Position numbers and translations under genes: made by a program
IMG/VR virus record: IMGVR_UViG_3300034095_001732
Coordinates: 1 to 55,921 of that record
DNA: 55,921 bases
Origin: a virus
Lineage: Duplodnaviria > Caudoviricetes
Reading direction: 5' to 3' (one strand)
Part shown: positions 743 through 55,921 of the stretch, in pieces
How the letters are laid out: each line of letters begins with the position of its first letter
Position numbering within the stretch: the first letter of the stretch is position 1
Notes under the pieces: generated by a model
The model's database searches: none
Told to the model about the DNA's origin: nothing
Seen by the model: only the letters and a program-made list of their open reading frames with translations

Positions 743-778
743 CAGTCAGCCCTTCGGCTGAGAACAACCCAACAACGT

Positions 779-997
779 ATGATCACACGCACCCGCCAGA
801 ACTGGAGCCCCGGCTCCACCGTTCGCGTCGGCTTCCTCCGCCTGCGCGTCCTCGCCTCCATCGCTACGCCCGGCAACTACCGGCCCGACGAATACGCCCT
901 CGAATCCCTCGACGGGCGCACGCACTACCGCTTCACCCCGCACCACGGCATCGTCCGCGTGAGCGACCGTGCCGCCGCCCTCGAACCCACCTTCTGA
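779..997 (+). CDS. Hypothetical early protein (72 aa)
   Basis: ATG preceded by the CAACCCAACAAC leader; good codon usage. Confidence 0.7.
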   Translation: MITRTRQNWSPGSTVRVGFLRLRVLASIATPGNYRPDEYALESLDGRTHYRFTPHHGIVRVSDRAAALEPTF

Positions 998-5134: not shown

Positions 5135-5239
5135 GTGATCGCGGTACTAGCTCTACTCCTAACCTTCGTTCTGCTCGCTACGGCTGCGGCGGTCATCGCG
5201 GTGCTGCGGGCGGAGGACAACGACGACCACGACAACTAA
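5135..5239 (+). CDS. Small hydrophobic membrane peptide (34 aa)
   Basis: GTG start downstream of TTGACG (5100); one TM segment and an acidic tail. Confidence 0.4.
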   Translation: MIAVLALLLTFVLLATAAAVIAVLRAEDNDDHDN

Positions 5240-18300: not shown

Positions 18301-21300
18301 AAAGTCATCGATGGTGCTGCGGACGATCTTGGCCTGCGCCCGCAGTTCCTTGTTCAGGATCAGCATCGGGTTGGCTTGGTTGGCCAAGTAATCGCCCACT
18401 GCGGTCCAGTCGCCGGGCGTCCCGACCTTGCCCCGCATCTTTTCCAGCGCATCGAGGGCCTTGAGCGGCGTGTCCTTAACGGACTCCGCCAGCATCCGCT
18501 CGCCCTTGATGACGTCGTACAGTTCCCCCAATCCGGAACGGACGAAGATGGGCCAGTTGTCCATACCGCCCAGCAACTTCTGCGCCCCGGGCCCCATGAC
18601 TTTCACCGGGATACGGGCCTTGTAGAGCCCGTCGAACACCGCGTTGCGGAGTTTGGTGTTGGCCACGCCTGCGCCCAACGCACCCCACATGAACCCGTTG
18701 ATGATACGGTCCATGGTCGAGGCGCTGCTGTCCTTGTTGTAGCCGTAGGCAAACCCGATCGCGCTGCCAATGGAACTTTCACCAAGGGCGCTGAGCAGGG
18801 ACAGGTTGATAGCTCCACGCCGAGCGCGACTCATTGACCGATCAGTGCGGACGTCATCTGCCGCAGCAGCTTGACGCTTGACCGCGTCCTCAAACTGCAG
18901 CGGCGGGATCTGGTTGCGGATTTCCGAGTAGTTGCCCTCGACCTTCGGGGCACCCGTCACCCCGTCAGGATCGCGTACCATGTACACGATGTCCGGACGA
19001 CCGAGCCGCTTGTACGACCAGCCCTTCGGGGCGAAGTCGGGGTTGAACGCCACGCGGGCCACCGGGCGGAAGCCCAGCTTCCCATACTTGTTGATCAGGA
19101 AACCATTGCCGGTGTCGTACGCGTCGAGCTTGATCGCCCGCTCCGCCGCTTGCTTGAGCAGTGGATCGACATCCGCCTTGGAGCCCGGCGCCTTGAACAC
19201 GCTGACCAGATCCCCGTCAGGGGTGACGCCCACGCCGGCGCTCTTGTCAGGCGCGAGGTAGAACTTGAACCCCCGTTCAGCGTACTCCTCCGCCGTCTTG
19301 ATCGTTACCGCTTTTCCGTACGGGTGCTTCTTTGCGGCGGCTGTGATGGCGTCTCGGAAATCTCGTCGGGCAATAGCATCAGGGAGCCAGCGGCCTTTTG
19401 CATCAGCTCTCTCGGCCCTAAACTGCTCAAGGAGTTGGGGAGAGTGTTCAGCGAACGCGGGTTCGAGGTATTCTGACGCGTACCGCTTACGAAGATCCAC
19501 GAGTTGGGAAACTCGCGTTCCGCCTCCTGCGCGGACAATGTTCTGAAGGTAGACTTCGCCATTGGGGGATTTGTTCCAGTCATTGGTGCTCGACTTGATG
19601 GTTGAGGGTACATCCCGCACGTCAAGCGGGAGGTCCGGGTTGCCCTTTGTCCACTCCTCCAACCGGATGGTCAGAGCTTTGGCCTTCTCGGCGCTGAAGG
19701 AACGGGGCGTAAACTTCCGATCCGCATCGGTGACGAGAATCATGTTCCCGTCTCCGGGCGACCGCATCACCGAATAGCCTTCCAGCTTGGCCTCGCCGGT
19801 GATCCGGTTGAGGTCCGCGTCCGAAAGCTTCTGGCCATCGGCCCGCTTGATGATGACAGCGCGCTTGTTCTCACCGCCGACGACGGCACGCCAGCTCATC
19901 GTGGCCTGCTGGTCCGTGACGTACGCCAGCGCATCCCGCAGGATTGTGGTGGCGGCGTCGCTACCCAACACCTCGATCGAGGTCATCGGGCTCACCTCGC
20001 CGGCGAACCGACCCTGACCCTCGCTGATGTTCACCAGCTTCAACGACCCGCCGACCGCCCTCACTAGGTCGGGCACTAGCTTGTTCAGCACGTCGGTGGT
20101 GATCTTGCGCTGAGCCGCGGGCTCCAGATCGCCCCACGCCGGGAACTCGAACGGCAGGATGGACCCGCTGCTGTAGTTCACCTCTGCCGGGATGCGGCGG
20201 ATGTTGGACTCGAACGCTTCCTGCACCGTCTGGCCAGCGCGACCGTACTGCTTCAGGGTCCGCATCCACCCCACCGCTTGGAACTCGATCGGAGTCCAGT
20301 CGGTGATGCCCGCGAACCCGACGAGGTTCATGCGCCGGGCGCCATCGTTCATCCACTTGGATACGCCCTCGTACTGGGTGCCGCTGGGGGACGAGGTGAG
20401 ATCGACCTCCAACGGAACCGGCTCCGGCATGGACGCCGTCTTGTACGTCATCTCCAGCGGAACCCGGCGGCGTTCGGCACCCTCCTTGATGGTCTTGAAC
20501 TCGGAGACCTCCAGCTTCACGGGCTCGCCGTCGAGGTAGAGGTTGCCGCTCTCGGCCATATCGTAGAGCCGCGACAGCGTCTGATGGTCCACGTGGCCGG
20601 AGTCACGTCCAGACCACACGTCGGCCACAGCCGGCTGCCCCATCGCCGGATCATCCCCGTGGAACGTGCGCGTGTTCTTGAGCTGACCGGAGTCAACGAA
20701 GTCCAGCAGCTTGCGGCTCAGGCCCGCAGCGGTGCCCTCGGCCATCTCGCCCGACAGGACCGCCATCAGCTTCTTGTGGGCCAGACCACCCTTCTTGCCC
20801 AAGCCGATCCCGGCCAGCATGTCCTTGACGTTAGAGATGTTCCCGATCCCGCCGCTGGGCGAGACGTTCTGCTGGGACATCAGCCACAGCAGCAGCTCCC
20901 GCGGCATGTCGTCGCCGTAGATGTCGCGGAACATCTGGTTCGCCTCCCGATACCAGAGGCGAGCGTCGGCGATCTCCTTCGGGCTCATCCACGCCTTCGT
21001 CTCCTCCATCCACGCGTCGTAGGACTTGCCGCCATCGCCAGTGGTGGCACCCACGGTGATGGGCTTGGTCTTCCCATTGGTGTCCGGCTTGGTGGTGAAC
21101 GTGACCTCGGGGTTCTTGGCGACACCCGTGCCCTGACGCATCGCCAAGAAGAGGCGACGGTTCTCGGCCGCATCACCCACCGCCTGCTGGATCAACTCAG
21201 CGGGGGTGATCTTGGTCGTGGGCTTTACGCGTCGGCGTCCGGCAAGGATGCCGGGGACGTCCTCGTTGTGCAGATACTTCCAGAGCTTGCGGAGGTGCGG

Positions 21301-24300
21301 GCGGATCTCCTCGCCCAGCTCCTTGAGCATCCCGGCCGACCAACGACCAAACGTGGTGGCCCCACGCCCCATGATGAAGGCGCCCTTGACGGCATTGGCC
21401 GCCACCCACTTGGGGTCGAGGAAGGGGTTGGCTGATACCCGCCCTTGGTAATCCTTGAGGGTCTTGTCCGCCCAGTCCTCGACTCGGGAGACCATCCCCT
21501 TTTTCATCGCGGCGTCTCGCAGCTTCTTGGCTCGGGCAATGAACGCGTTCTCCCGGGCGATAAGATCCCGCCAATACGCTTCCTTATCAGTAAGGCTCTG
21601 GATGGCATCTGCCTTGGTCCCCCCCGCGGACAAGACCCGCCGGGAGTGATGGCCCGGGCCATCCAAGTACCACCAGCGATCCTCTGGGTCACGGAAGATG
21701 CGGTACTTGTTGGGCCCCAGCTGGACATCCCAACCACCGACGGTCGGATCCTTGACCTTGGTGATCGTCGGAGGGGCACTCTTCACCGCCTCCAGTTCCG
21801 CTTTGGCTTCCACCACCCGCGTCTTGTGCTCCTCGGGAGTGATCTCGCGGGTGGCCTTGAGTTCATCCAGATACTCAATGCGGCTCTGGATCTGCTCCGC
21901 CTTCTCTTGAACCTTGATGGAGTCGGTACGAACTTCCGGGGTCTTGGTGCGAACTTTGGCCGGCTCTGCACGAGACTGGACCGCCTCAAGTTCCTGCTTG
22001 GCGTCGATCTTCTTATCGCCCGCGGCTAGGAACTCCTTGGTCGCATCATCGCGAAGTTTCTCCAGCCTAGCGATTTCCTTCTTGCTCGTCTTGCCCGCCT
22101 TGGCCTTGACCAACATCTCCTTGAAGGCAGCCATCGAAAGCGCGGCTACATACTCATCCTTTTCGGCGGCCCCCAAAGCAGCCTGTTTGGTACGAACTTC
22201 CGGGCTTTCAGCACGAACTACGGAAGTTTCGGTACGAACCACTTCAGGACGGCGTGCCTTCACGACCGCTTTCGGTTTAGGCGCCGCTGCCGCCGCAATG
22301 TCCACGTTGGGGACCACCATCTCGCCTTCGCTGGTGGCCACGCGGGAGAAGCCGGCACTGTCCGGCACCCGGCCGAGGAACGTGGCCGGCACCGGGGTCT
22401 CTGCCTCGGGCAAACGGACGGTAACCGGGGCGTTCTCGGGTAGTTGCTGCACCACCTCCAGCGCCGTGGATTTGCGGTCTAGCTCCACGAGACGGCTGAT
22501 CTGCTGGTCGTAAAGCGCCTGTTCCTGCGGGGTACGCACGACTTCCCGCGGGTCTTGGTACTTGCGCGGGTCCACCGGGGCGCCGCGTTCATTGACGAAC
22601 ACCGGGTTGCCCACCTCATCCACCAAACCTGAATCGTAGATGAGTGGTTCCAGCTCGATCATCCGCGGGCTCTTGGGCAGCGGGACCAACGGCTCGGGCG
22701 CGGGGGCAGCCTTCTCCAGCACTGGCACTTCGCCTGCCACCACTCCGGCCTTCTTTGCAGGAGGGATAACTACATACTCCCTACCCCACTTGGACGTGAA
22801 CGACAGCCCGTCGTATCCTTGAGCCCTCGCTGCGCGGATCAGGCCGTCCATACCTGCGTCCCGGGCCAAACCCAACTTGCTCTTGGCCTGTATCCACGTA
22901 TCCGCCTCCAACAAATTGTTGAAGGTCACATCCTGCTCGGTGACCTTGCCCGTCTTCCCGGCATAGGCTTCGGCGACTTTCCGATCGGGGGACATGAACA
23001 ACGCATCCCCAACCGTCGGAGCCCCTTCCCATTCAGGCTTCGTACCCCGATAGAGCTTTATCGACCCTTGACCCACCATCTCAGGCGTCAGCTCCTCGAA
23101 GCCCTTGAGCGCCGTGGCCTTCCGCACCTGCTGCGCCGCCGGCACATTCTGCGGCAGCGGCTTGACCGTGTCGAGGATGGCCTGCCGCGTGAGCGAGTAC
23201 TCACGGGGGTCCGTGATGTTCGCCATCATCACCGCCTGATCGCGCTTCAGCACGATACCATCTTCGCGGAAAGTCTCGGTGATGCGCTTTACCCGCTCGT
23301 TAAACTCCTTGGTCCGGGCAACGGAACGGACGTTGGCCTCCGCCAGCTCATCGCGAGGCGGCGGCACACGGATCGTCTCACCGGACGGGATAGCGGTGCG
23401 GACGAACTCCTCAACGGGGGGACGCGCAGCTGGCAGTTCCAGCGGGGGGCGAACCGCCACTGTCTCGCTGGACGGGATGACCGTGCGGATGAACTCCCCT
23501 TCCGGAGTCCGGGCAGTGTCGATCTGGGGCAGCCCTTCCGGCAACGCGAGGGGACGCCGCATCATCGCGGAGTAATCCTCGTCGGTCATCTGCGCGGCTT
23601 TGACGCGATTGCGAACCGCGTCCCACTCATTGTCCGAGACCACGCGATCCGCGTCGGAGATCCGCGTACCAGTTGCCCTGAAGGCATCGACCGCGCCCAA
23701 CCCGGCAAACGCGGCCAAGAACGTGCTGGCCGTAGCACCTGCGACGTTGCCCGCCGTGGGGTCAGCCACCGCCTCGTTGATGGCCTTGACCGCCTCCACC
23801 ACCGCCGGCGTCGCCGCGGTAACTTGGACGCCAAGATCAACACCGCGGACAGTCTTCTCAAACGGGTCGGAGACCCTCCTTAGCCTCCTCGCCGCCGTAA
23901 CCGCAGGACCGATGACACCGCCCGTCGCCACCGACGCCATGTCGATGGGGGAGCTGACGGCCTCACCGACTTTGAGTGCAACCAGCTTGGCCGTTTCGCG
24001 GCTCAGTTCGTCGGGCAGAGCCTGCGACCGCATGATGCCGAGCATCGGGTCCACCACGACATCCTCCTCGGCCGGAGCCGGGGGCCTCGCCAGTATCTCG
24101 TCGATCTTTGCCTCCTGCTTTTTGACCGCATCCCGGACGAACTGCGGCGAAGTGGTGAGCCAGTCGTAGGCGGGCTTGATGTACTTCTCCCCCGCGGTCT
24201 CCGCCGCTTGAGCCAGTGCCGCCTGCGTTTTATCCGGCAGGAACGCCCCAAGAACACGTTCGTACATCCCCGGCTCGGTGGACTCATACACCACCGGCTC

Positions 24301-24522
24301 CAGCTTGATGGGGATGTTGGCCTTGGTCGCCTCGATGTCCGTGTATGGCCCCACCTCCGGGGGCTGGAAGCCTTCCGGCAACTCCATCGCCTGCCCCACA
24401 ATGGACTCAAACTCCTGCGCCGCCGCCTGCTCCGGAGTGATCTCCGCCGGAGAGGTGAACAAGGGCCTCTCGCCCTCTTGCTCGGTCAACGGCTCTAGGG
24501 TGATCTTGATGGGTTGAGCCAT
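15385..24522 (-). CDS. Large polyvalent virion ejection protein (3045 aa) with ADP-ribosyltransferase-like, glycosylase-like and GNAT-like domains
   Basis: End of the virion operon. LYRGT...FMSPDRKVAEAYA...GYDGL...EYVV (ART); WY...SQQNVSP...ADVW...QAVGW; DGDLVSVF...LDAYD...YGKLGF (GNAT). Confidence 0.8.
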   Translation of the reverse strand: MAQPIKITLEPLTEQEGERPLFTSPAEITPEQAAAQEFESIVGQAMELPEGFQPPEVGPYTDIEATKANIPIKLEPVVYESTEPGMYERVLGAFLPDKTQAALAQAAETAGEKYIKPAYDWLTTSPQFVRDAVKKQEAKIDEILARPPAPAEEDVVVDPMLGIMRSQALPDELSRETAKLVALKVGEAVSSPIDMASVATGGVIGPAVTAARRLRRVSDPFEKTVRGVDLGVQVTAATPAVVEAVKAINEAVADPTAGNVAGATASTFLAAFAGLGAVDAFRATGTRISDADRVVSDNEWDAVRNRVKAAQMTDEDYSAMMRRPLALPEGLPQIDTARTPEGEFIRTVIPSSETVAVRPPLELPAARPPVEEFVRTAIPSGETIRVPPPRDELAEANVRSVARTKEFNERVKRITETFREDGIVLKRDQAVMMANITDPREYSLTRQAILDTVKPLPQNVPAAQQVRKATALKGFEELTPEMVGQGSIKLYRGTKPEWEGAPTVGDALFMSPDRKVAEAYAGKTGKVTEQDVTFNNLLEADTWIQAKSKLGLARDAGMDGLIRAARAQGYDGLSFTSKWGREYVVIPPAKKAGVVAGEVPVLEKAAPAPEPLVPLPKSPRMIELEPLIYDSGLVDEVGNPVFVNERGAPVDPRKYQDPREVVRTPQEQALYDQQISRLVELDRKSTALEVVQQLPENAPVTVRLPEAETPVPATFLGRVPDSAGFSRVATSEGEMVVPNVDIAAAAAPKPKAVVKARRPEVVRTETSVVRAESPEVRTKQAALGAAEKDEYVAALSMAAFKEMLVKAKAGKTSKKEIARLEKLRDDATKEFLAAGDKKIDAKQELEAVQSRAEPAKVRTKTPEVRTDSIKVQEKAEQIQSRIEYLDELKATREITPEEHKTRVVEAKAELEAVKSAPPTITKVKDPTVGGWDVQLGPNKYRIFRDPEDRWWYLDGPGHHSRRVLSAGGTKADAIQSLTDKEAYWRDLIARENAFIARAKKLRDAAMKKGMVSRVEDWADKTLKDYQGRVSANPFLDPKWVAANAVKGAFIMGRGATTFGRWSAGMLKELGEEIRPHLRKLWKYLHNEDVPGILAGRRRVKPTTKITPAELIQQAVGDAAENRRLFLAMRQGTGVAKNPEVTFTTKPDTNGKTKPITVGATTGDGGKSYDAWMEETKAWMSPKEIADARLWYREANQMFRDIYGDDMPRELLLWLMSQQNVSPSGGIGNISNVKDMLAGIGLGKKGGLAHKKLMAVLSGEMAEGTAAGLSRKLLDFVDSGQLKNTRTFHGDDPAMGQPAVADVWSGRDSGHVDHQTLSRLYDMAESGNLYLDGEPVKLEVSEFKTIKEGAERRRVPLEMTYKTASMPEPVPLEVDLTSSPSGTQYEGVSKWMNDGARRMNLVGFAGITDWTPIEFQAVGWMRTLKQYGRAGQTVQEAFESNIRRIPAEVNYSSGSILPFEFPAWGDLEPAAQRKITTDVLNKLVPDLVRAVGGSLKLVNISEGQGRFAGEVSPMTSIEVLGSDAATTILRDALAYVTDQQATMSWRAVVGGENKRAVIIKRADGQKLSDADLNRITGEAKLEGYSVMRSPGDGNMILVTDADRKFTPRSFSAEKAKALTIRLEEWTKGNPDLPLDVRDVPSTIKSSTNDWNKSPNGEVYLQNIVRAGGGTRVSQLVDLRKRYASEYLEPAFAEHSPQLLEQFRAERADAKGRWLPDAIARRDFRDAITAAAKKHPYGKAVTIKTAEEYAERGFKFYLAPDKSAGVGVTPDGDLVSVFKAPGSKADVDPLLKQAAERAIKLDAYDTGNGFLINKYGKLGFRPVARVAFNPDFAPKGWSYKRLGRPDIVYMVRDPDGVTGAPKVEGNYSEIRNQIPPLQFEDAVKRQAAAADDVRTDRSMSRARRGAINLSLLSALGESSIGSAIGFAYGYNKDSSASTMDRIINGFMWGALGAGVANTKLRNAVFDGLYKARIPVKVMGPGAQKLLGGMDNWPIFVRSGLGELYDVIKGERMLAESVKDTPLKALDALEKMRGKVGTPGDWTAVGDYLANQANPMLILNKELRAQAKIVRSTIDDFSRNLVALGIATPGSDLHDTIYNNLGKYLTRTYKIFTDPNFEYDPANVVRAATEYATQLKLEGDTRPFADLVNEGQAQAAYQMAKVKGTGMEPARSFAQGNGIARVDGSLLKPRKELSEAWAEMLGIEKDPIRAAAITVDRMADMIAARATQFKIAEVGLELGLLSRRFSKQHSIPMTSEKGPPIFSDPSAPLLPRDVSRNPLDGLFTTPEVRDAMFTLRAYQTTSAPLRALAFSTAAVKIGKTALHPISVAPNFLSAASQPLVQGHLIQGIFHPGIYRDAFSISFNTPFPSNAAKIRADIPMLIREGILKQDVNLNDLVETAQAAGYTDVGNKLVTWFPKTMAIPKAVIKGALWTYGKVEEFPRLISFYAEVGRYSHALFGKPFEDLVPEEAALVYRKAIDVTKRVYPNSQMVPEVVKKFSTVGALEPFVAYKWSIFQTTIETVKTVNTDIDEGRRTGNPRMIKAGVARLTGLIGALYGAYWLNEAYNQLNGVSGEQDKALRRRLPDWDRTGMLVVPTLTPDEVAYANQSYLLPQSMISAAIKAGLEGVTPAQAGAAFIKETAGSMVSDGGLILKPVMEAVTGYNEYGRRIYPRDGGKYVDVSEIQADAIRNAATGGQNLVVGTMHVLKSTAPGFMTEGMKWYKSARDEVGPDGQVYKPSDLGARLLGVRLQRINLPLQFERQAGELFSRINEARTEFGRARNRKDATPESIETAYQMSEQSRKIVYRDLVQYLDDAKLLSQDREATIRMLQKAGVPSDFLLGAINKIYVPGTKEKDVSARDQFEALKRLPEAEQDAERLRLQSEDPRLKKQFQALEREKRAGITSEVRMIRNIDEEDGKRARFIAQLILNAGDAKAQGLKQEELRSFGLLSGETGRWLYTNPELKAKTWAEARVLLETGKNPNYLPLPTSSVEQAPAPVAPPARPKPAAPPAQPAPQNDVFRDDQGRLWRQLPNGKYERVTQPAPVPAGR

Positions 24523-49000: not shown

Positions 49001-49541
49001 CATCAACCTGATCTCGTTCAACGGCCCCGGCCACAACGGGGGCGACGTGGACTGGAGCACCCGCACGCTGATCGGCGGTCCCGACATCGACGACACGCTC
49101 AAATGCTCGACCGGCCTGACGGACTTCAAGCTGCACGTCGGCGAGGTGGAGACCGGGCGCGAGGACGCGCTCGACATCAACAACCACTGCCGCGGGATCC
49201 AAGTCCACGCGGACCAGTGGGTGTTCCCCAAGGGCGTCGCCCGCACCGGCTTCACCATCAAGGGCAACTCGCACGGCGTCCGCGTCTCGGGCAACGTGCT
49301 GGGCGACCCGCTGGTGGATCTGGGCAACTGGTCCGACCAGAGCAACGAGCCGGTCACCAACGTGCGCCTCGCGCTGCGCCGGGCGGACGGCAAGGCGATC
49401 CGCGTGCGCGTGCTCAACGGCGACCTGCCGGTCTTCGAACCCGGCACCGGCCCGTACCGCTACGTCTTCCCGTGGAAGATGAAGTGGCTGCAGCGCCTGA
49501 CCTTCGGCGCCTACAGCCTCTGGAAGCGGGTCACTGGATGA
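48984..49541 (+). CDS. Hypothetical protein, possible short beta-helix
   Basis: DDTLK, EDALDIN and TIKGNS.GV.V rung-like motifs. Confidence 0.65.
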   Translation: MNGKPDINLISFNGPGHNGGDVDWSTRTLIGGPDIDDTLKCSTGLTDFKLHVGEVETGREDALDINNHCRGIQVHADQWVFPKGVARTGFTIKGNSHGVRVSGNVLGDPLVDLGNWSDQSNEPVTNVRLALRRADGKAIRVRVLNGDLPVFEPGTGPYRYVFPWKMKWLQRLTFGAYSLWKRVTG

Positions 49542-49998
49542 CCGGCTCGTAGTACGCGTCCGGCCCGACCTGATCGACTAGCTTGACCCGCACCATCGCG
49601 TGCACCGGGTGGGTGGTGCCGCGTTTCCACATCGAAGCCCGGCGCTGGTCCGGCAGACGCACGACCTGCATCCGCGGATTCGGCGGCTGGCCCAACACGA
49701 CCACGTCAGTCTCGGCCGGCCACTTGTGCTCGATCGGGGCGGGCGGCGTGGCGGGCGAGGTCGGGATCACCGGCGCGTGCGGCTTCGGCTCGATGATCTG
49801 CTTCATCACCTCATCCGGCTCGGCCACCACCTCGGGCGGCGCGTCGGCGTCAGCGGGCAGGCGGATGTCGAGAATGTCGATCCCCCATTCTGTCGCCTTG
49901 CGGCCAGCTTCCTCCACCTCACCGCGCACCAGTAGGGAGCGCAGGATGTTGCGGCGGTTGATGTTTATCTGATCAGTGGGTTTTCCCTTTCGGTTCAT
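49531..49998 (-). CDS. Hypothetical protein
   Basis: Coupled by ATGA to the TerS-like gene. Confidence 0.65.
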   Translation of the reverse strand: MNRKGKPTDQININRRNILRSLLVRGEVEEAGRKATEWGIDILDIRLPADADAPPEVVAEPDEVMKQIIEPKPHAPVIPTSPATPPAPIEHKWPAETDVVVLGQPPNPRMQVVRLPDQRRASMWKRGTTHPVHAMVRVKLVDQVGPDAYYEPVIQ

Positions 49999-50522
49999 AT
50001 CACGTCCTCTGGTTTCAAATTCTCCACGTCCAGCTCGGCCGGCTGGAACGCCGGAGCGGCGACGGGCGCCGGCATCAGCGCGGCGATGATCTCATCACGA
50101 CTCTTGTCGCCGTAGTGGTTCACCTGAATGTTCACCTGCGCCGCGCCGACCTGCGCCCGCGCGTCCAGCGCCCGGCGCTTGTCCTCGGTCACCGAGAAGA
50201 TGAACCCCAGTTCCCCCGGCTTAAACTCGTTGGCGTCCACCTTCTCCTCGATCCGCCCCGCGATCTTGTCCGAGATCAGCGCCAGCTTGTGGGCCAGCCG
50301 CTGATTGAACTCATCCAGCGGCATACCCAGCACCCGCTCGATCCGTTCGCAGTCCATCTTTGACGGGGGGTTCTTCTTAAACGTCTTCGGCAGGATAGGC
50401 TTCCCCGTCAGGGCCCGGTCCACCGCGGCCTCGATCGCCTGCTCGGTGTCCACGGGTTTGACGGGCATGATGTACCCCTTGGGCCGTCCACCTTTACGCG
50501 CATTACTTGTTCCGCCTCTCAC
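49995..50522 (-). CDS. Putative terminase small subunit (start may be 50468)
   Basis: KGGRPKG N-terminus, helical core, QVNIQVNH..KSRDEII C-terminus. Confidence 0.45.
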   Translation of the reverse strand: MRGGTSNARKGGRPKGYIMPVKPVDTEQAIEAAVDRALTGKPILPKTFKKNPPSKMDCERIERVLGMPLDEFNQRLAHKLALISDKIAGRIEEKVDANEFKPGELGFIFSVTEDKRRALDARAQVGAAQVNIQVNHYGDKSRDEIIAALMPAPVAAPAFQPAELDVENLKPEDVI

Positions 50523-50578
50523 GGCTGCAGTCCAAAAACCTGTTGAGCAGTTGTCAAGGTTGGGCTAAGGCCCGGGGC

Positions 50579-51229
50579 ATGAACTTCCTCCGCACCCAGA
50601 CCCTGACCCGTATTGCTGATGTTCTAAAGCTAAAGCTCAACGGCGTGTTGTGGAAGACCCAGTCCAACCTGAACATCATCCCGGGTCATGGCATCTCTTT
50701 CACCCAGACTGAAGTCAAAGACGTCTCCAACCTGACCATCTCAGTCGGCGACGCCGACGGGTCGATCGGGTACTGGGGTGCGTTCTACGACACGACGGAC
50801 CAGACCATCGCCAGTACGACCACCGCCTACGTGGTAGGGCTGAATAGTTCCGGCCCCAATAACGACGGGGTGTCGGTGGTGGACGGCAGCAAAGTCACCG
50901 TGGCTAACGCCGGGGTCTACAACATCGCTACTTCGGTGCAGTTAACCTCCACCAGTGTACAGATTCACGACGCGTGGTTCTGGTTCCGTAAGAACGGGGT
51001 CGATCTACCCGACAGTTGTTCGCAGGTTTCCATCCCCCAGAGCCATGGTGGCAACCCGGGAGCCCTGCTGTTCTACGTCAACATCATGGAAAAGCTCAAC
51101 GCTGGGGACTACATCCAGCTGGTTTGGAACGCCAACGACACCAATGTCTCGCTAGAGACCATCCCAGCGGCCGTCTCACCCGTCCGGCCGCGCAATCCTA
51201 GCGTAATCCTGACCGTTAATCAGGTCTAA
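50579..51229 (+). CDS. Fibre-like protein with C1q/BclA-C-like jelly-roll domain
   Basis: YWGAFYDTTDQT...AGVYNI..SVQ...WFRKNG...AGDYIQL...PSVILTV. Confidence 0.7.
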   Translation: MNFLRTQTLTRIADVLKLKLNGVLWKTQSNLNIIPGHGISFTQTEVKDVSNLTISVGDADGSIGYWGAFYDTTDQTIASTTTAYVVGLNSSGPNNDGVSVVDGSKVTVANAGVYNIATSVQLTSTSVQIHDAWFWFRKNGVDLPDSCSQVSIPQSHGGNPGALLFYVNIMEKLNAGDYIQLVWNANDTNVSLETIPAAVSPVRPRNPSVILTVNQV

Positions 51230-51432
51230 GGCGCTTTAGCGTAGGGGTTTGGGGGCGGTTTGGGGGTACTTTGCACTGCGGATTTTCACTTATGGGGGTG
51301 AAACGATAATACGCGCGCCCCCGCGCTAGCCCGAGACCCCCTCCCCCCCTCGCTTTACGGACGCCGGTTGGGCGTATCGGGGCAACAGGTTGTGCACACC
51401 AACCCGTTGAGCCTCAACGCTTTAGGAGGCGT

Positions 51433-51460
51433 GCCGTAAACAATCCCTATTATGTTAAGT
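51433..51460 (+). promoter_or_regulatory. dif/cer-like XerCD recombination site
   Basis: GCCGTAAACAA-TCCCTA-TTATGTTAAGT; the right arm is 10/11 identical to the E. coli dif XerD arm. Confidence 0.7.
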
Positions 51461-51540
51461 TGCTGCGGAAGCCCTTACGGATGAACAGGTTTTGTCAGTA
51501 TGACTGTCAGAAATCGGGCGAACGCGGATACCGATCTCCC

Positions 51541-52035
51541 TCAACCCACGCACTCCGCCAGCCGCGAAGCCTCGGTGCCCCGCAATAGCCTGCGCCGCAC
51601 CGACTTCTCCACCAGCGGTCCCCCAAAGAGGTCACGGCCGCACCGACCGCAGCGGGCGGCGACGCTCTCCACCGGAGCCACCCGACCGCAGCACCGGACG
51701 CCGAGGGGCTCCGCCGGAGGAAGGCGCCTGCGCCGTCGGGGCGTCGGCCCGATGACCAACCGGGCAACGTGTTCCTCCGGCGCGCCGTGGGACCAGAGGA
51801 CAAGCGCCCTCCGCAGGTGCCGGGCGAGGCTCCGCCGGCCAGAGCACCGGCCGCAGCGTGCCGCGCAGTTGCCCACGCCGACAGAGGCGCCGCAGTCGGT
51901 GCAGCGCCAGAGGTGACGGCACCGACGGCGCCAGCGGCTCGCCGGTGTGCCAGCGGTGTGGGCTGCGATGCTTTCCCCCTCGGTCTGCTCCGGCGTTTTC
52001 TCTTCTCTGTTTTTCCCCGTTAGAACAAAAACCAT
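51541..52035 (-). CDS. Possible double zinc-ribbon protein
   Basis: CTDC...CGRC and CCG...CGRC duplication; otherwise Arg-rich and could be spurious. Confidence 0.3.
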   Translation of the reverse strand: MVFVLTGKNREEKTPEQTEGESIAAHTAGTPASRWRRRCRHLWRCTDCGASVGVGNCAARCGRCSGRRSLARHLRRALVLWSHGAPEEHVARLVIGPTPRRRRRLPPAEPLGVRCCGRVAPVESVAARCGRCGRDLFGGPLVEKSVRRRLLRGTEASRLAECVG

Positions 52036-52126
52036 AGCAGCCCACACCGTTGGTCACGGGCCCCGACGGCGACAAGCGGCAACGGCGATTTCAGAGGAGA
52101 ACGTGACGTTTTCCGTAAATTGAGAC

Positions 52127-52157
52127 TTGACCGGCGAACGTGTTTCGCCGATAAGGG
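52127..52157 (+). promoter_or_regulatory. Putative early promoter with a palindromic operator in the spacer
   Basis: TTGACC followed by CGGCGAA-CGTGT-TTCGCCG. Confidence 0.5.
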
Positions 52158-52159
52158 CG

Positions 52160-52870
52160 GCTCAGTTCTTTTCCATTCAACCGCAGCGGGCCAACCGGGC
52201 CCCAAGGCGATGCCGGCGAAATGCCTGCCGCCCGACCCGGACCCAACCCGCCGCGACCCACCGACAGCCGGGGCCCCGAGAAGGCGCCCGGCACCGACCC
52301 GCGACCCCGAGGCTGAGCAGGCCCAGAGGGGGACACGGCGCTGGCGGACCACCGGGAGCACCCGGCGGAGGTGGGGGCCGAATCGATAAGGGGTTGCCGC
52401 CGCGAGAGCGACTGCACCCCGCCCGACTCACTCACCCGTTGCCGACGTAACGTCTGCCGGGGCCCGGGTGGAGACGCGATGCCGACGTAACGTCTGCCGC
52501 GTGATCCCGGGGAGTCCCTCCCGTTGCCGCCGTCGAACGCTGCCGGGAGGTTCCGCCCTCCGCGATGCCGACGAAACGTCTGCCGCAGGGGGAGCCGGAT
52601 GGGCGGGGCGCAGGGTAGCGGACGGCGCCCACGGTCCCCCTGAGAGGGGAGCGGATGGAAGCGGGGAGCGCCCCGCGAGGGTCTCACGCCGTTAGCTCGG
52701 CGGAGAGGCCCGCCGCCTTGACCGTTCCGCCCTCGGCACCGAGGGACGGAGAACGCGCGAATCTCACCCCGACCTGCCGCAATGCCACGGCGGGAAGGAG
52801 TCAATGCAGCCACCGCCGCCATCGCGGCCGGTGCCGGTCCCAAGCCCGGACGCCCACGGCGATGCAGAGG
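52160..52870 (+). ncRNA. Candidate structured non-coding RNA or ssDNA element with six repeated bulged hairpins
   Basis: Covarying stems around a conserved WTGCC/TGC core; further hairpins; no credible ORF. Confidence 0.55.
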
Positions 52871-52879
52871 GACTCCTCG

Positions 52880-53095
52880 ATGACCACGACCACCGCCTAC
52901 AAGTTTGCCGTCGCCTGCAACGCCGATCGCTGGGTGCCCGCCCACGGCGGCACCGAGACCGAGTTCACCGCCCGCACCGGCAAGCGCCTGCTCTACTGCT
53001 ACAACCCGCGCCTCGGCCGCCACGCCTTCCTCGACCTCGGCTCCGACATCATCCTCACCGACGACGAAGCCCTCGTTGCCCTCGGCTTCGTCTGA
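52880..53095 (+). CDS. Hypothetical early protein (71 aa)
   Basis: Strong C-ending codon bias; first early gene. Confidence 0.7.
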   Translation: MTTTTAYKFAVACNADRWVPAHGGTETEFTARTGKRLLYCYNPRLGRHAFLDLGSDIILTDDEALVALGFV

Positions 53096-53119
53096 CCCAA
53101 CCCACAACCCGTTCCCACG

Positions 53120-53251
53120 ATGTACCGCATCCCGCGCCGTCCCACCCTCGCGCAGCAGCTGCTGCGCCTCGCCCTCCTCACCGCCGGCGCCCTCGTGGGC
53201 GTCGGCCTGTTCTGGGGCTTCCTCGTCCTCTGGTTCTCGCTCCCGCTTTGA
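53120..53251 (+). CDS. Small single-TM membrane protein (43 aa)
   Basis: CCCACG-ATG leader; basic N-terminus plus a hydrophobic helix. Confidence 0.65.
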   Translation: MYRIPRRPTLAQQLLRLALLTAGALVGVGLFWGFLVLWFSLPL

Positions 53252-53305
53252 CCGTCCCTTTGTCCGTCAACCTCAACCCAACCGTCTGAAAAACCTGTTC
53301 GTCCT

Positions 53306-54355
53306 ATGACCTCCAACACGACCGAAACGTACCTCCGCTCACTCATCGACGCCCGCCAGCGCGTCCTGTTCGTCGGCCCGCCGGGCTGCGCGAAAACCTC
53401 CCGCGTCGCCGCCGCTGCGGCCGCCGCCGGTCACGACCTCATCGTGTTCCGCGCCTCGCTCGCCGAGCGCGTGGACCTCGGCGGGTGCCTCGTGCCCGAC
53501 GTCGCCGCCGGCGTGACCCGCGCCCTCCCGCTGGAACTGCTGCACCGGCTCCGCACAACGACCACGCCCACCGTGCTCCTGCTCGATGACCTCGGTCAGG
53601 CGCCCATCGACGTACAGAACGCCGCAATGAGCCTGTTCGACGCCGGCGCGCTGCCGCCGCACGTGCTGATCTGGGGCGCGACCAACCGCCCCGGCGACAA
53701 GGCCGGCGTGTCCGCGCTCTCGGAGCCGCTGCGCTCCCGGTTCAAACTCAAGTTCGCGATCCCGACCCCGGGCACCGAGGACAAAAGTGACGGCGCCGTC
53801 CTGCTCGGCACGTGGAAGGACGAGGTCGATGGCTGGTGCGACTGGGCGAGCGCGCAGGGCTTCGCCGCCGAAATCATCGCTTGGCACCGCTCCACGACCG
53901 GCCGCGACCTGTACGCTTGGAAGCCGGCCGCCGACCCGGGCGTCGCGCTGCCCGACTTCCGCGGCTGGCAGACGGTGGGCGAGCTGTGGAACGCCGGGCT
54001 CCGCGACTTCCGCACCATCGCCGCCGCGATTGGCAAGGCCGCCGCCGCCCCGTTCATCGCCTTTGCCCAGCTGGCCGACCAGCTGCCCACGCCGCAACAG
54101 GTGTGGCTCGACCCCGACGGCGCGCCGGTCCCGACCGACCCGGGTGCTCAGTACCTCATCGCCTCGATGCTCGGCCGCGCGGCGGAGCCCAAGTACGCCG
54201 ACGCCCTCGTGCGCTACTTCTCCCGGCTCGACCGGGTGCAAGGCGCCTATTGCGCCCGCGACTCTTACCGCCGGCTCGGGGCGAAGCTTGCCGGCTGCGC
54301 CGCTTGGCAGCGCTGGTGGCTCGACAACCGCCAGCTGTTTGAGGCCCACGGCTGA
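53306..54355 (+). CDS. MoxR-like AAA+ ATPase
   Basis: Walker A GPPGCAKT, Walker B LLLDD, ATN, LRSRF arginine finger. Confidence 0.85.
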   Translation: MTSNTTETYLRSLIDARQRVLFVGPPGCAKTSRVAAAAAAAGHDLIVFRASLAERVDLGGCLVPDVAAGVTRALPLELLHRLRTTTTPTVLLLDDLGQAPIDVQNAAMSLFDAGALPPHVLIWGATNRPGDKAGVSALSEPLRSRFKLKFAIPTPGTEDKSDGAVLLGTWKDEVDGWCDWASAQGFAAEIIAWHRSTTGRDLYAWKPAADPGVALPDFRGWQTVGELWNAGLRDFRTIAAAIGKAAAAPFIAFAQLADQLPTPQQVWLDPDGAPVPTDPGAQYLIASMLGRAAEPKYADALVRYFSRLDRVQGAYCARDSYRRLGAKLAGCAAWQRWWLDNRQLFEAHG

Positions 54356-54391: not shown

Positions 54392-54441
54392 CCTCTCCTC
54401 CCGTTAGCTCAACCCAACCGACTGAAAAACCTGTTCCCACA

Positions 54442-55230
54442 ATGTCCTCCATCATCGCCCGCAAAGCTGTCATTGCCTCGTTCGACTCCGGCCAGCCTCG
54501 CTTCCGCAAGGCGCACCGCGACGAGACCGCCGCCCTCAATGCCAAACACGGCACGAGCAATCTCGCGCTCGTCACCGTGACCATCTGCGATCACCCGGCG
54601 CTCGCCGAGGCCGGCCGCATCATCACCGCCGCCCGCGCGGACCACTACCGCCTGACCGTGCCGGCGGCGGATCGCGGGATGCGCCTGCTCCCCGGCGCCC
54701 GCCAGCTGGAGCACTCGTCCCTGCTGCAGGGGCACGCGGTCAAGTTCCAAAGCGCGGTCGCCGACTTCGTCCGCGAGTACGACACGATCCGCGCCGACGC
54801 ACCTGCCCGGCTCAATGGCCTGTACGTCCCCGAGCAATGGCCCGATGTGGACTTCGTCCGCAACGCGTTCCGGCTGCGCTGCCGCTACCTGCCGGTCCCC
54901 TCGCTCGGTCAGTGGGATGAGTGGCTCGCCGAGTCCGCCAGCACGGCGACCGACGAGCTGCGCGAGCGAATCGGCGAGGCGCTCCGCGCCTACGCCGCCA
55001 AGCTGGGCGACGGTGGCAAGATCTTCCGCGACTCGCTCGTGGAAAACCTCCGCGACATCGTCAACCTCGCCGAGGATTTGAACGTCGGCGGCGACAAAAC
55101 GGTGGCCGACCTCGTCGCCAAGGCGCGCGACCTCGCGCAGCCCGACCCCGACCAGCTGCGCGAAGACCCCGCGCTCCGCGCCGACACCGCCGCCCGCGCG
55201 GCTGACCTCTGCTCCCTGTTCTCCCTGTAA
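54442..55230 (+). CDS. Conserved phage protein between the AAA and vWA genes (DUF3150-like)
   Basis: HYRLTVP...GMRLLP...FVREY...KIFRDSLVENL...LNV. Confidence 0.75.
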   Translation: MSSIIARKAVIASFDSGQPRFRKAHRDETAALNAKHGTSNLALVTVTICDHPALAEAGRIITAARADHYRLTVPAADRGMRLLPGARQLEHSSLLQGHAVKFQSAVADFVREYDTIRADAPARLNGLYVPEQWPDVDFVRNAFRLRCRYLPVPSLGQWDEWLAESASTATDELRERIGEALRAYAAKLGDGGKIFRDSLVENLRDIVNLAEDLNVGGDKTVADLVAKARDLAQPDPDQLREDPALRADTAARAADLCSLFSL

Positions 55231-55254
55231 GCAACCCAACAACCTAGTCCCACG

Positions 55255-55921
55255 ATGACCTCGAAAATCAAAATCGAACGCGCCCGCTGGTGGGCGCTCT
55301 CCAACCCGGCCGCCGTGTTTTACGGCAGCCTCGCCACCCACCTCGTCGACGTCCTCGACGAGTCCGTCCCGACCGCTGCCACCGACGGCAAGCGCATCCT
55401 CTGGAACCCCGCGTTTCTGGAGTCGCTCACCGACGAGGAGGTCCGGTTCGTCCTGCTCCACGAGGCCCTGCACTGCGTGTACGGGCACTTCTGGCGCCTG
55501 CCCCTGACCGACGACGGCAACCGCGCCGGCGACTACGCGATCAACCGCATCCTCGCGGGCATCCCCGGCATCTCGATGCCCAAGGGCGGCCTGCTCGACC
55601 CACGCTTCGACGGGCTCGCCGAGGAGGAGATCCTCGCCGCCCTCGGTCGCACGCCGCAGCCCCAGCCGGGCAACGGCAAGCCCTCGCCGCAGCCCGGCAA
55701 GGGCGCCGGCAAGCCGCAGCCCGGCGCCGGCCAGCCCGGCAACGGCAAGCCGCAGCCCGGCAAGGGCGCCGGCAAGCCGCAGCCCGGTGCCTCTGATCCC
55801 GGCGGGTGCGGCGGGTTCATCGCCCCCGACACGACGCCCAACCCGAACGGCCAGACCCTCCGCGAGAAGTGGGAAGGCGCCGTGTTGCAAGGCGAGTTCC
55901 TCGCCAAGTCGCTCGGTCAGG
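55255..55921 (+). CDS. N-terminal part of HExxH metallopeptidase/vWA protein (DUF2201-like), continuing across the join to 699; about 412 aa in total
   Basis: ATG at 55255; TAATDGKRILWNP...VLLHEALHCVYGH (HExxH); Pro/Gly/Gln linker; in frame with position 1. Confidence 0.85.
   Translation, partial: MTSKIKIERARWWALSNPAAVFYGSLATHLVDVLDESVPTAATDGKRILWNPAFLESLTDEEVRFVLLHEALHCVYGHFWRLPLTDDGNRAGDYAINRILAGIPGISMPKGGLLDPRFDGLAEEEILAALGRTPQPQPGNGKPSPQPGKGAGKPQPGAGQPGNGKPQPGKGAGKPQPGASDPGGCGGFIAPDTTPNPNGQTLREKWEGAVLQGEFLAKSLGQ
55795..55921. repeat. Terminal direct repeat, copy 2
   Basis: Identical to 1-127. Confidence 0.95.

What the first reader, a model, noticed from the sequence alone, without database searches (positions are those of the whole stretch)
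51400..51492. dif/cer-like XerCD site with symmetric flanking palindromes in an integrase-less tailed phage
Seen: a 28-bp 11-6-11 site, GCCGTAAACAA TCCCTA TTATGTTAAGT (51433-51460). Known: the E. coli dif XerD arm is TTATGTTAAAT and the ColE1 cer XerC arm ends in ACAA. Two 25-bp degenerate palindromes with identical spacing lie 8 and 7 bp on either side: CAA-CCCG-TTG-AGCCT-CAA-CGCT-TTA (51400-51424) and GAA-GCCC-TTA-CGGAT-GAA-CAGG-TTT (51468-51492). They look like accessory protein sites. No recombinase gene is recognisable in the genome. Inference: the phage borrows host XerCD either to integrate at dif (IMEX behaviour, best known from filamentous phages such as CTX) or to resolve dimers of a circular form.
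Basis: partly seen in the sequence, partly recalled or inferred. Interest (0 to 1): 0.75.

Follow-up and report, generated by a model that had tools for sequence, protein, structure and literature searches.

The report
Host-type dif site in tailed phage
A lake-water tailed phage with no recombinase of its own carries a strictly conserved 20-base copy of the core of a bacterial chromosome-dimer-resolution (dif) site, which suggests it borrows the host's Xer enzymes, something so far described mainly for small non-tailed phages.

Summary
Across three independent phage lineages, four copies in all, only the inner 20 nt are invariant (51440-51459: ACAA, the spacer TCCCTA and 10 of 11 bases of the XerD-like arm). 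The outer 7 nt of the "XerC arm" drift freely.

The only exact copy of this 20-mer in 185,579 species genomes lies at the cumulative GC-skew maximum, that is the replication terminus, of a Bacteroidaceae chromosome. A 1-mismatch copy in a second genome also sits at a skew peak. The same spacer and XerD arm occur with a canonical XerC arm in other viral contigs. These include fragments or genomes of unrelated tailed phages, at least one of them complete and without a tyrosine integrase.

The core is therefore a genuine dif-type sequence. The phage has no tyrosine or serine recombinase.

Function is not shown. I found no integrated copy, no host, no repressor and no Xer activator. My odds are about 0.65 that host Xer enzymes act on it and about 0.4 that it is a truncated dif mimic used for integration, as in Legionella LME-1. 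Dimer resolution or cyclisation, and an early regulatory element, remain rivals. I rate it a new variant of a known kind.

The parts
51433..51460 (.). 28-bp dif-like site with 11-6-11 layout
   Evidence: Read directly. 4 of 6 dyad pairs.
51440..51459 (.). 20-nt invariant core: ACAA, spacer TCCCTA and TTATGTTAAG
   Evidence: Identical in the window, L011, L002 and L012, while surrounding columns average 69% identity. Sole exact genome hit lies at a replication terminus.
51433..51443 (.). Left (XerC-side) arm. Degenerate; only the inner ACAA is conserved
   Evidence: The outer 7 nt read GCCGTAA, GCTGCAA and TGATGCC in the three lineages. Canonical viral sites have ..TTCGCATAA here.
51444..51449 (.). 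6-bp spacer TCCCTA, the presumed strand-exchange region
   Evidence: Invariant in relatives. The same spacer is found in L162 and L189 with a canonical left arm and at the G001 terminus site.
51450..51460 (.). Right (XerD-type) arm TTATGTTAAGT
   Evidence: 10 of 11 to the arm quoted in the finding. Identical to the arm in the Bacteroidaceae terminus sites, an Acinetobacter plasmid site and 122 viral sites in 119 loci that were selected with this arm. The last base is C in L002 and L012.
51400..51424 (.). Left flank doublet (AA-N4-TT twice). Overlaps the hairpin CGTTGAG-C-CTCAACG at 51405-51419
   Evidence: Skeleton kept at 8 of 8 positions in L011 and 7 of 8 in L002/L012. Hairpin potential with compensatory changes.
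51468..51492 (.). Right flank doublet (AA-N4-TT twice)
   Evidence: Skeleton kept at 8 of 8 positions in L011 and 6 of 8 in L002/L012.

Best explanation
The 20-nt core is a mimic of a bacterial dif site on which the host's Xer tyrosine recombinases act. I put this at about 0.65.

The use I consider most likely (about 0.4 absolute) is as the phage attachment site for integrase-free integration at the host chromosome's dif, that is IMEX behaviour. XerD would bind the perfect right arm. A XerC-type partner would be recruited cooperatively to the degenerate left arm, and strands would exchange in the TCCCTA spacer.

Because only one full arm, the spacer and 4 nt of the other arm are kept, integration would regenerate one intact dif and one modified site. 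In Legionella LME-1 that arrangement stabilises the integrated form.

The phased AA/TT doublets on both sides would bind an architectural or accessory protein.

Shown: the sequence, its conservation pattern, its identity to a terminus site, the absence of a phage recombinase, and the non-random flanks. Inferred: Xer binding, integration, and the role of the flanks.
For: (1) The core is invariant in 4 copies from 3 lineages. Flanks are 38 of 100 identical between the window and L002.
(2) Conservation stops at the end of the XerD-type arm on the right and 4 nt into the left arm.
(3) One exact hit in the genome-contig collection (185,579 species), at G001:91010. The cumulative GC-skew maximum falls in the bin 89,312-94,311.
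(4) In G087 a 1-mismatch copy at 200,152 sits at the skew maximum of 200,000.
(5) At up to 3 mismatches, 40 of 101 Bacteroidaceae genomes have hits. By my count that is 49 hits against 16 for the reversed control, and 6 genomes match at up to 2 mismatches.
(6) L162 and L189 carry AGTTCGCATAA-TCCCTA-TTATGTTAAGT. L189 encodes TerS, TerL and a portal.
(7) G665, 39 kb and 100% complete, is a tailed phage with a canonical site between its replication genes and terL. 0 of 5 larger site-bearing records have PF00589.
(8) No PF00589 or PF00239 in the window.
(9) The site lies at the junction between the late-accessory and early modules.
(10) Precedents: LME-1's att is 22 of the 29 bp of the host dif (PMC9765430, passages), and integrase-less microviruses of Bacteroidales are flanked by dif-like repeats (PMC3091885, passages).
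Against: No integrated relative was found. The exact-core scan found no prophage context. The portal protein was found in 0 of 401 Bacteroidota genomes searched, a sample from a phylum that may not be the host's. Logan contigs of X13, X14 and X20 cross the site with no listed joint, although contigs drop rare forms and 326 loose ends were not shown.

The phage looks virulent: PolA, primase-helicase, exonuclease and gp2.5-type SSB. No repressor or partition domain turned up in the 20 ORFs scanned with Pfam, and no DUF3653/XafT.

The left arm is not a XerC consensus and is unconserved. The dyad scores 4 of 6, below Kono's cut-off.

Known IMEX such as GGI and TLC keep the XerC arm and degrade the XerD arm (PMC5357621, passages). 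This site is the reverse.

The host is unknown. Genes lack Shine-Dalgarno sequences but the Bacteroidota promoter motif is absent.

In G087 a second skew peak at 300,000 (4582) nearly equals the one at 200,000 (4681), and only 400 kb around the site was sampled.
Confidence: 0.4

Rival explanations
1. The site is a Xer site used on the phage's own DNA. Host XerCD would resolve multimers of a circular replicating or carrier-state form, or circularise terminally redundant injected DNA, as Cre-lox does for P1 (recalled). No chromosomal integration would be involved. The symmetric flank doublets would act as accessory or topological-filter sites.
For: All the evidence that the core is a dif-type sequence applies. 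The record assembles as a circle with a 127-bp overlap. No integrated form was found. The flanks are non-random and partly conserved. Plasmid-prophage tailed phages do need dimer resolution, usually with their own Xer-like enzymes (PMC8026635, passages).
Against: Phages that package from concatemers gain nothing from resolving them. No partition or plasmid-maintenance gene was seen. Self-resolution puts no outside constraint on the spacer, yet it is invariant; this is weak evidence, because only about 3 free positions are involved. cer-type accessory sequences lie on one side only and go with an 8-bp spacer (PMC5357621, passages).
Confidence: 0.22
2. The core is an early regulatory element, such as a -10-like TATTAT promoter or an operator at the head of the rightward early transcription unit. 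Under this view it resembles dif only because both are short AT-rich dyads.
For: It lies at the start of a roughly 20-kb block of + strand genes running from 51.5 kb through the wrap to 15.3 kb. It contains TATTAT. It is one of only 31 AT-rich islands. A conserved twister ribozyme downstream on the + strand indicates rightward transcription through this leader. Hairpins on either side could be terminators or insulators.
Against: There is no conserved -35 at 16-18 nt and no extended -10 (reading). A separate conserved sigma-70-like site exists 150 nt upstream at 51283-51310. No second copy of the core exists in the genome; the best other match has 6 mismatches. This view does not explain why the only exact genomic match sits at a replication terminus, or why the same spacer and arm occur with canonical XerC arms elsewhere.
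Confidence: 0.18
3. The core belongs to a replication origin or a packaging or terminus signal in the 2-kb non-coding region.
For: The 2-kb gene-poor region holds four 26-nt iteron-like repeats at 52205-52585. The phage encodes a primase-helicase. In G665 and L189 the canonical sites lie just upstream of the terminase genes.
Against: The repeats lie about 750 nt from the core. No molecule ends could be examined because only contigs were available. This view gives no reason for identity to a chromosomal terminus site.
Confidence: 0.08
4. The resemblance is chance and the core has no function.
For: The XerD-like arm alone at up to 2 mismatches is at expectation. A 20-mer is expected about once by chance in 596 Gbp (my estimate).
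Against: 20 of 20 positions are invariant in three lineages amid flanks 36-40% identical. The single genomic hit falls within a 5-kb bin at the skew maximum of a 2.7-Mb chromosome.
Confidence: 0.02

Closest known systems
[quoted passage not shown]
   Same: It is a phage-like dsDNA element without its own recombinase. Its att is a truncated dif mimic (22 of 29 bp), so one junction is a modified dif. Here 20-21 nt of the 28 are kept.
   Different: LME-1 uses a single recombinase and perfectly symmetric arms unrelated to XerC/D motifs, and its integration has been demonstrated. Here the arm is of XerD type, the element is a 56-kb tailed phage with its own replication genes, and integration is not shown.
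Vibrio IMEX phages CTX, VGJ and TLC, and the gonococcal island GGI (PMC5357621 and PMC12715192, passages read)
   Same: A dif-like attP, no integrase, and reliance on host XerC/XerD.
   Different: Those elements are filamentous, satellite or island elements. GGI and TLC keep the XerC arm and spacer and degrade the XerD arm; here the XerD arm is perfect and the XerC arm degenerate. No XafT-like (DUF3653) gene is present.
Bacteroidales microvirus proviruses (Alpavirinae) and enterobacterial gokushoviruses (PMC3091885, passages read; PMC7062461, listing only)
   Same: Integrase-less phages flanked by dif-like repeats.
   Different: They have small ssDNA genomes, and some carry two inverted dif-like sites. 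Here there is a single site in a tailed dsDNA phage.
ColE1 cer and pSC101 psi plasmid resolution sites (PMC5357621, passages read)
   Same: A XerC/D core plus flanking sequences proposed to bind accessory proteins, and an intramolecular role is possible.
   Different: cer has an 8-bp spacer and roughly 180 bp of accessory DNA on one side that binds ArgR and PepA. Here the spacer is 6 bp and short doublets lie on both sides.
Acinetobacter plasmid pdif sites (literature in listing only; sequence seen)
   Same: L254 reads AATTCGCATAA-TCCGTA-TTATGTTAAGT, which matches the phage's inner arm, spacer and XerD arm at 19 of 21 positions.
   Different: pdif sites have a canonical XerC arm, occur in pairs bounding modules, and sit on plasmids.

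Membership tests
XerC/XerD core site (dif/cer type) | Two 11-bp arms separated by a 6-8 bp spacer | tested here: met
   11-6-11 layout read.
XerC/XerD core site (dif/cer type) | Right arm matches the XerD-binding consensus | tested here: met
   10 of 11 to the arm quoted in the finding. Identical to the arms at Bacteroidaceae terminus sites and in an Acinetobacter plasmid site. 10 of 11 positions are invariant in relatives.
XerC/XerD core site (dif/cer type) | Left arm matches a XerC-binding consensus and is conserved | tested here: not met
   Only ACAA is conserved. The outer 7 nt differ in each lineage and do not resemble the ..TTCGCATAA arms of canonical viral sites.
XerC/XerD core site (dif/cer type) | Dyad symmetry: more than 4 of 6 pairs between positions 7-12 and 17-22 (Kono et al.) | tested here: not met
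   4 of 6. Criterion taken from PMC3025954.
XerC/XerD core site (dif/cer type) | Bound and cleaved by Xer recombinases | not testable with these tools
   Needs EMSA or cleavage assays.
IMEX (integrative mobile element exploiting Xer) | No recombinase of its own | tested here: met
   No PF00589 or PF00239 in six frames.
IMEX (integrative mobile element exploiting Xer) | The att site mimics the dif of its host | tested here: inconclusive
   The core equals a terminus site of a 38-43% GC Bacteroidaceae genome. That genome cannot be the host of a 63% GC lake phage, and the true host is unknown.
IMEX (integrative mobile element exploiting Xer) | Integrated copies at dif, flanked by att repeats | tested here: not met
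   None found. Exact-core scan; portal in 0 of 401 genomes; contigs cross the site. All three are weak negatives.
cer/psi-type resolution site | One-sided accessory region binding ArgR/PepA or ArcA, and an 8-bp (cer) spacer | tested here: not met
   6-bp spacer and short doublets on both sides. Protein binding is untestable here.
Chromosomal dif | Single copy at the replication terminus of a cellular chromosome | tested here: not met
   The element is on a viral genome. This feature was met only for its bacterial look-alikes.

The most novel reading that the evidence does not exclude
Tailed dsDNA phages that look virulent and have no integrase form an unrecognised class of Xer-exploiting elements. 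This class would include the present lineage and unrelated podovirus-like phages such as G665 and L189. They would lysogenise, or persist as resolvable circles, through canonical or truncated dif mimics placed at module junctions, with phased AA/TT flanks binding an accessory factor. That would mean hidden temperate behaviour in a sizeable share of environmental 'lytic' phages.
Probability: 0.3. Interest if true: 0.85.

Novelty: new variant of a known kind. Interest (0 to 1): 0.7.

Why it matters
Xer-exploiting integration is established for filamentous phages, microviruses, double jelly-roll phages and genomic islands. In my four literature searches (listings and abstract starts only) I found no report of a tailed phage relying on host Xer.

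If confirmed, three things would follow:
- Lifestyle prediction from the presence or absence of an integrase would be unreliable for tailed phages.
- The phage's dif mimic would give a sequence handle for predicting the host: find the bacterium whose terminus carries the matching spacer.
- It would add a case with reversed arm asymmetry (perfect XerD arm, degenerate XerC arm) for studying how Xer recombination is activated outside cell division.

It is directly testable with gel shifts and plasmid integration or resolution assays.

Tried and rejected
- **Phage database.** Nucleotide searches of the INPHARED phages with 2 kb and 20 kb of the window found nothing.
- **Inversion crossover site.** The block g49531-g49995-g50507 is inverted in L002 relative to the window. 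However, no inverted partner of the core exists, and the conserved intergenic DNA starts about 170 nt to the left of the core. Rejected.
- **Early-gene leader motif.** The resemblance of the core to that motif is only vague.
- **Conserved mini-ORF.** ATG 51452 opens a 10-codon frame of equal length in L002 (my reading), but no residues beyond MLS are shared.
- **Structured RNA.** Rfam finds nothing at the core. RNAalifold gives only flanking hairpins on either strand.
- **N4-type virion RNA polymerase and hairpin promoter.** The 3045-aa protein hits only a generic virion structural family, and the hairpin is absent from the L002 lineage.
- **Bacteroidota host.** The leaders lack Shine-Dalgarno sequences, but the phylum's promoter motif is absent and the portal was found in 0 of 401 genomes. 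Left open.
- **Phylum-wide motif.** There were 33 hits against about 47 for the reversed control, by my count. No enrichment.
- **Order scan around G170.** 8 of 201 genomes had hits, against 9 control hits by my count.
- **Sinorhizobium 17-mer matches.** They lie inside a GntR/FadR-type gene and are a coding coincidence.
- **Named phages.** Only chance-level matches.
- **RNA runs.** No RNA holder is listed.
- **Read-level evidence.** All runs were Logan contigs, so split reads and molecule ends could not be examined.
- **dnaA as an origin proxy.** It was misleading: the sites lie 0.13-0.29 of a genome from dnaA, and skew places the G001 origin at about 1.43 Mb.
- **Material I could not see.** Supplements were closed, so Kono's per-genome dif lists were not available, and figures are not held, so Krupovic's Figure 2 (Bacteroidales att sequences) was not seen. 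Both could bear on the dif assignments.

Full report
**The object.** The window is a complete IMG/VR virus record of 55,921 bp whose first and last 127 bp are identical, which indicates a circular or permuted assembly. It is 63% GC and has no tRNA.

Its genes mark it as a tailed, podovirus-like phage with a replication module of lytic type:
- DNA polymerase A, primase-helicase (PriCT-2 plus DUF5906), exonuclease, gp2.5-type SSB and an SF2 helicase on the + strand;
- a leftward late block with large terminase, portal, a T7-like major capsid protein and a 3045-aa virion protein.

The closest named phages share only 31-37% protein identity. Six-frame searches find neither a tyrosine nor a serine recombinase.

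**The observation.** The 28-mer GCCGTAAACAA-TCCCTA-TTATGTTAAGT is at 51433-51460, and the two 25-nt flank elements are at 51400-51424 and 51468-51492, as stated. They lie in a roughly 2-kb stretch (51230-53305) with no convincing ORF by GC3, apart from a partly conserved small gene near its right end. This stretch separates a small accessory gene block from the long rightward early block.
- With up to 2 mismatches the XerD-like arm is at chance level: 2 hits against 1.4 expected.
- With up to 1 mismatch it appears in 16 of 300 shuffles, and together with an inner A[CT]AA in 0 of 300. This null ignores the 31 AT-rich islands.
- The flank pattern AA-N4-TT-N7-AA-N4-TT occurs 3 times in the genome against 0.14 expected, and two of those copies bracket the site.
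- By Kono's dyad rule the site scores 4 of 6, where more than 4 is required.

**Conservation.** Flanking proteins retrieved four sets of relatives:
- a 56-kb viral contig (L002, L003 and L010; 70-76% protein identity);
- its 94%-identical sibling L012;
- a third lineage, L011 (75-81% DNA identity to the window);
- fragments that do not reach the site, L004 and L013.

In all four copies that reach the site, representing three lineages, the 20 nt ACAATCCCTATTATGTTAAG are identical. The 7 outer bases of the left arm are GCCGTAA, GCTGCAA and TGATGCC in the three lineages, and base 28 is T or C.

Between the window and L002 the flanks are only 21 of 58 and 17 of 42 identical, yet 13 of the 16 AA/TT skeleton positions are kept. 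Hairpin potential on each side is retained through unrelated sequence.

**What the core is.** An exact scan of one genome per 185,579 species found a single copy, in a record titled as a Bacteroidaceae MAG.
- I first took this for chance, since about one hit is expected (my estimate). However, it lies at position 91,010, and the cumulative GC skew of that 2.7-Mb chromosome peaks in the 5-kb bin 89,312-94,311.
- The skew analysis used coarse sampling of the whole chromosome plus 440 kb of contiguous sequence. Skew places the origin near 1.43 Mb, and dnaA is not there.
- In a second genome with different flanks (G087), a 1-mismatch copy at 200,152 sits at the skew maximum of 200,000 in 10-kb bins, or 204,000 in 2-kb bins. 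A second peak at 300,000 is nearly as high, and only 400 kb around the site was sampled.
- In the family, 40 of 101 genomes have hits at up to 3 mismatches. By my count that is 49 hits against 16 for the reversed control, and 6 genomes match at up to 2 mismatches. Two of those six (G085 and G026) look like a shared coding sequence.
- One family member (L031) has a perfect ACATAA-N6-TTATGT dyad.

These are therefore very probably chromosomal dif sites. Their outer left arms also differ between genera. In three genomes an inverted second XerD-like arm lies about 65 nt away, which I cannot explain. At phylum level the exact motif is not enriched.

**The same site type in other replicons.**
- An Acinetobacter plasmid carries AATTCGCATAA-TCCGTA-TTATGTTAAGT.
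I estimate that many hits in AT-rich contigs are chance. The 30 sites in loci of at least 50% GC mostly have canonical left arms and 5-6 of 6 dyad pairs; 28 of the 30 reach that score.
- Two of those loci, L162 and L189, read AGTTCGCATAA-TCCCTA-TTATGTTAAGT, which is the phage's own spacer and right arm joined to a canonical left arm.
- L189 is a fragment of a tailed phage, with TerS, TerL and a portal. It is unrelated to the window phage beyond a weak TerL similarity.
- 0 of 5 larger site-bearing records have PF00589.
- One of them, G665 (39,119 bp, 100% complete), is a tailed phage with its site between the replication genes and terL.

**Mechanism.** The evidence shows a dif-type core under strong purifying selection in a recombinase-less tailed phage. 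It does not show what the core does.

I favour IMEX-type integration through a truncated dif mimic, for four reasons:
- Known Xer-exploiting elements are integrative.
- The site sits at a module junction, like an attP.
- The conserved span (one arm, the spacer and 4 nt of the other arm) parallels LME-1's 22-of-29-bp att, where the truncation stabilises the prophage.
- An invariant spacer fits an external partner, although this argument has little statistical power.

Against it:
- No lysogen, junction, repressor or Xer activator was found.
- The phage looks virulent.
- The arm asymmetry is the reverse of GGI and TLC.
- The host is unknown. The leaders lack Shine-Dalgarno sequences (2 of 26 genes have one by my reading), but no Bacteroidota promoter motif is present.

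The rivals are dimer resolution or cyclisation of the phage's own circle, an early promoter or operator, and an origin or packaging role. Their odds are given in the Rival explanations section.

**Comparison and novelty.** The element works like an IMEX att site or a cer-like site. It fails two formal tests for a canonical XerC/D site, the left-arm consensus and the dyad score, so I do not file it as a canonical dif.

In the papers I could search, Xer exploitation is described for inoviruses, microviruses, double jelly-roll phages, islands and LME-1. Tailed plasmid-prophages encode their own Xer-like enzymes. I found no tailed phage relying on host Xer (listings and abstract starts only). This makes it a new variant of a known kind, of good interest because it is testable and apparently recurs in unrelated tailed phages.

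Noticed in passing
window 52798-52875 (+); L012 4513-4594; L011 1525-1607; L013 706-777: A twister-P1-like self-cleaving ribozyme scoring 37.5-47.8 bits, below Rfam's gathering score of 67.2, with E-values from 3.5e-8 to 3.9e-5. Its catalytic core is intact. It is conserved in all four lineages examined (window, L011, L012, L013) and lies just upstream of the conserved C-terminal half of ORF 52655-53095, in the early leader.
   Followed up: partly
window 52103-52755, with repeats at 52205, 52434, 52474 and 52560: Four 26-nt iteron-like direct repeats sit in a non-coding block that is 93-95% identical between L011 and L002/L012. The adjacent ATPase gene is only 77-82% identical between the same contigs. 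This could be an origin, an RNA gene or a recently exchanged segment.
   Followed up: no
window 765-791, 1001-1027, 1326-1352, 53097-53123, 53272-53318, 54408-54454, 55232-55258: A conserved 27-47 nt leader motif (AACCCAAC...CCCACG-ATG) lies directly upstream of at least seven early-gene start codons. It may be a phage-specific promoter, a processing site or a translation signal.
   Followed up: partly
whole window: Well-supported genes lack Shine-Dalgarno sequences; the leaders are G-poor, of the type 'TAAC..ACC-ATG'. The Bacteroidota -7 promoter element is depleted, 1 match against 5.6 expected. The host phylum is unresolved.
   Followed up: partly
window 49531-51229 versus L002 4745-6426: The three-gene block g49531, g49995, g50507 is inverted between lineages, and in L004 further genes are rearranged. 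No inverted repeats were found at the boundaries.
   Followed up: partly
window 51273-51351: A conserved sigma-70-like site (TTTTCA-16-GATAAT, 51283-51310) is followed by a GC hairpin and an invariant 17-nt C-rich block (51335-51351). Both are shared with L002.
   Followed up: no
G001:C1 about 90,944-91,030; G061:C1 2,760,491-2,760,577; G087:C1 200,086-200,172: At the replication terminus of three Bacteroidaceae genomes the dif-like site is paired with a second XerD-type arm in inverted orientation, about 50-65 nt away. I have no explanation for this.
   Followed up: partly
G665 (L250 and L251), site near 20,406-20,433; L189 site near 5,179-5,206: Unrelated tailed phages carry fully canonical dif-type sites just upstream of their terminase genes. 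G665 is complete and has no tyrosine integrase. L189 is a 6-kb fragment that was not tested for an integrase, and it also has an AA-N4-TT doublet next to its XerC arm.
   Followed up: partly
window 15385-24522 (-): A 3045-aa virion protein with no Pfam domain and only a weak match to a generic virion structural PHROG.
   Followed up: no
window 53306-54355 and 55255-55794 continuing into 1-699: An AAA+ ATPase is followed by a DUF2201 metallopeptidase/VWA-like protein whose gene runs across the record's junction.
   Followed up: no
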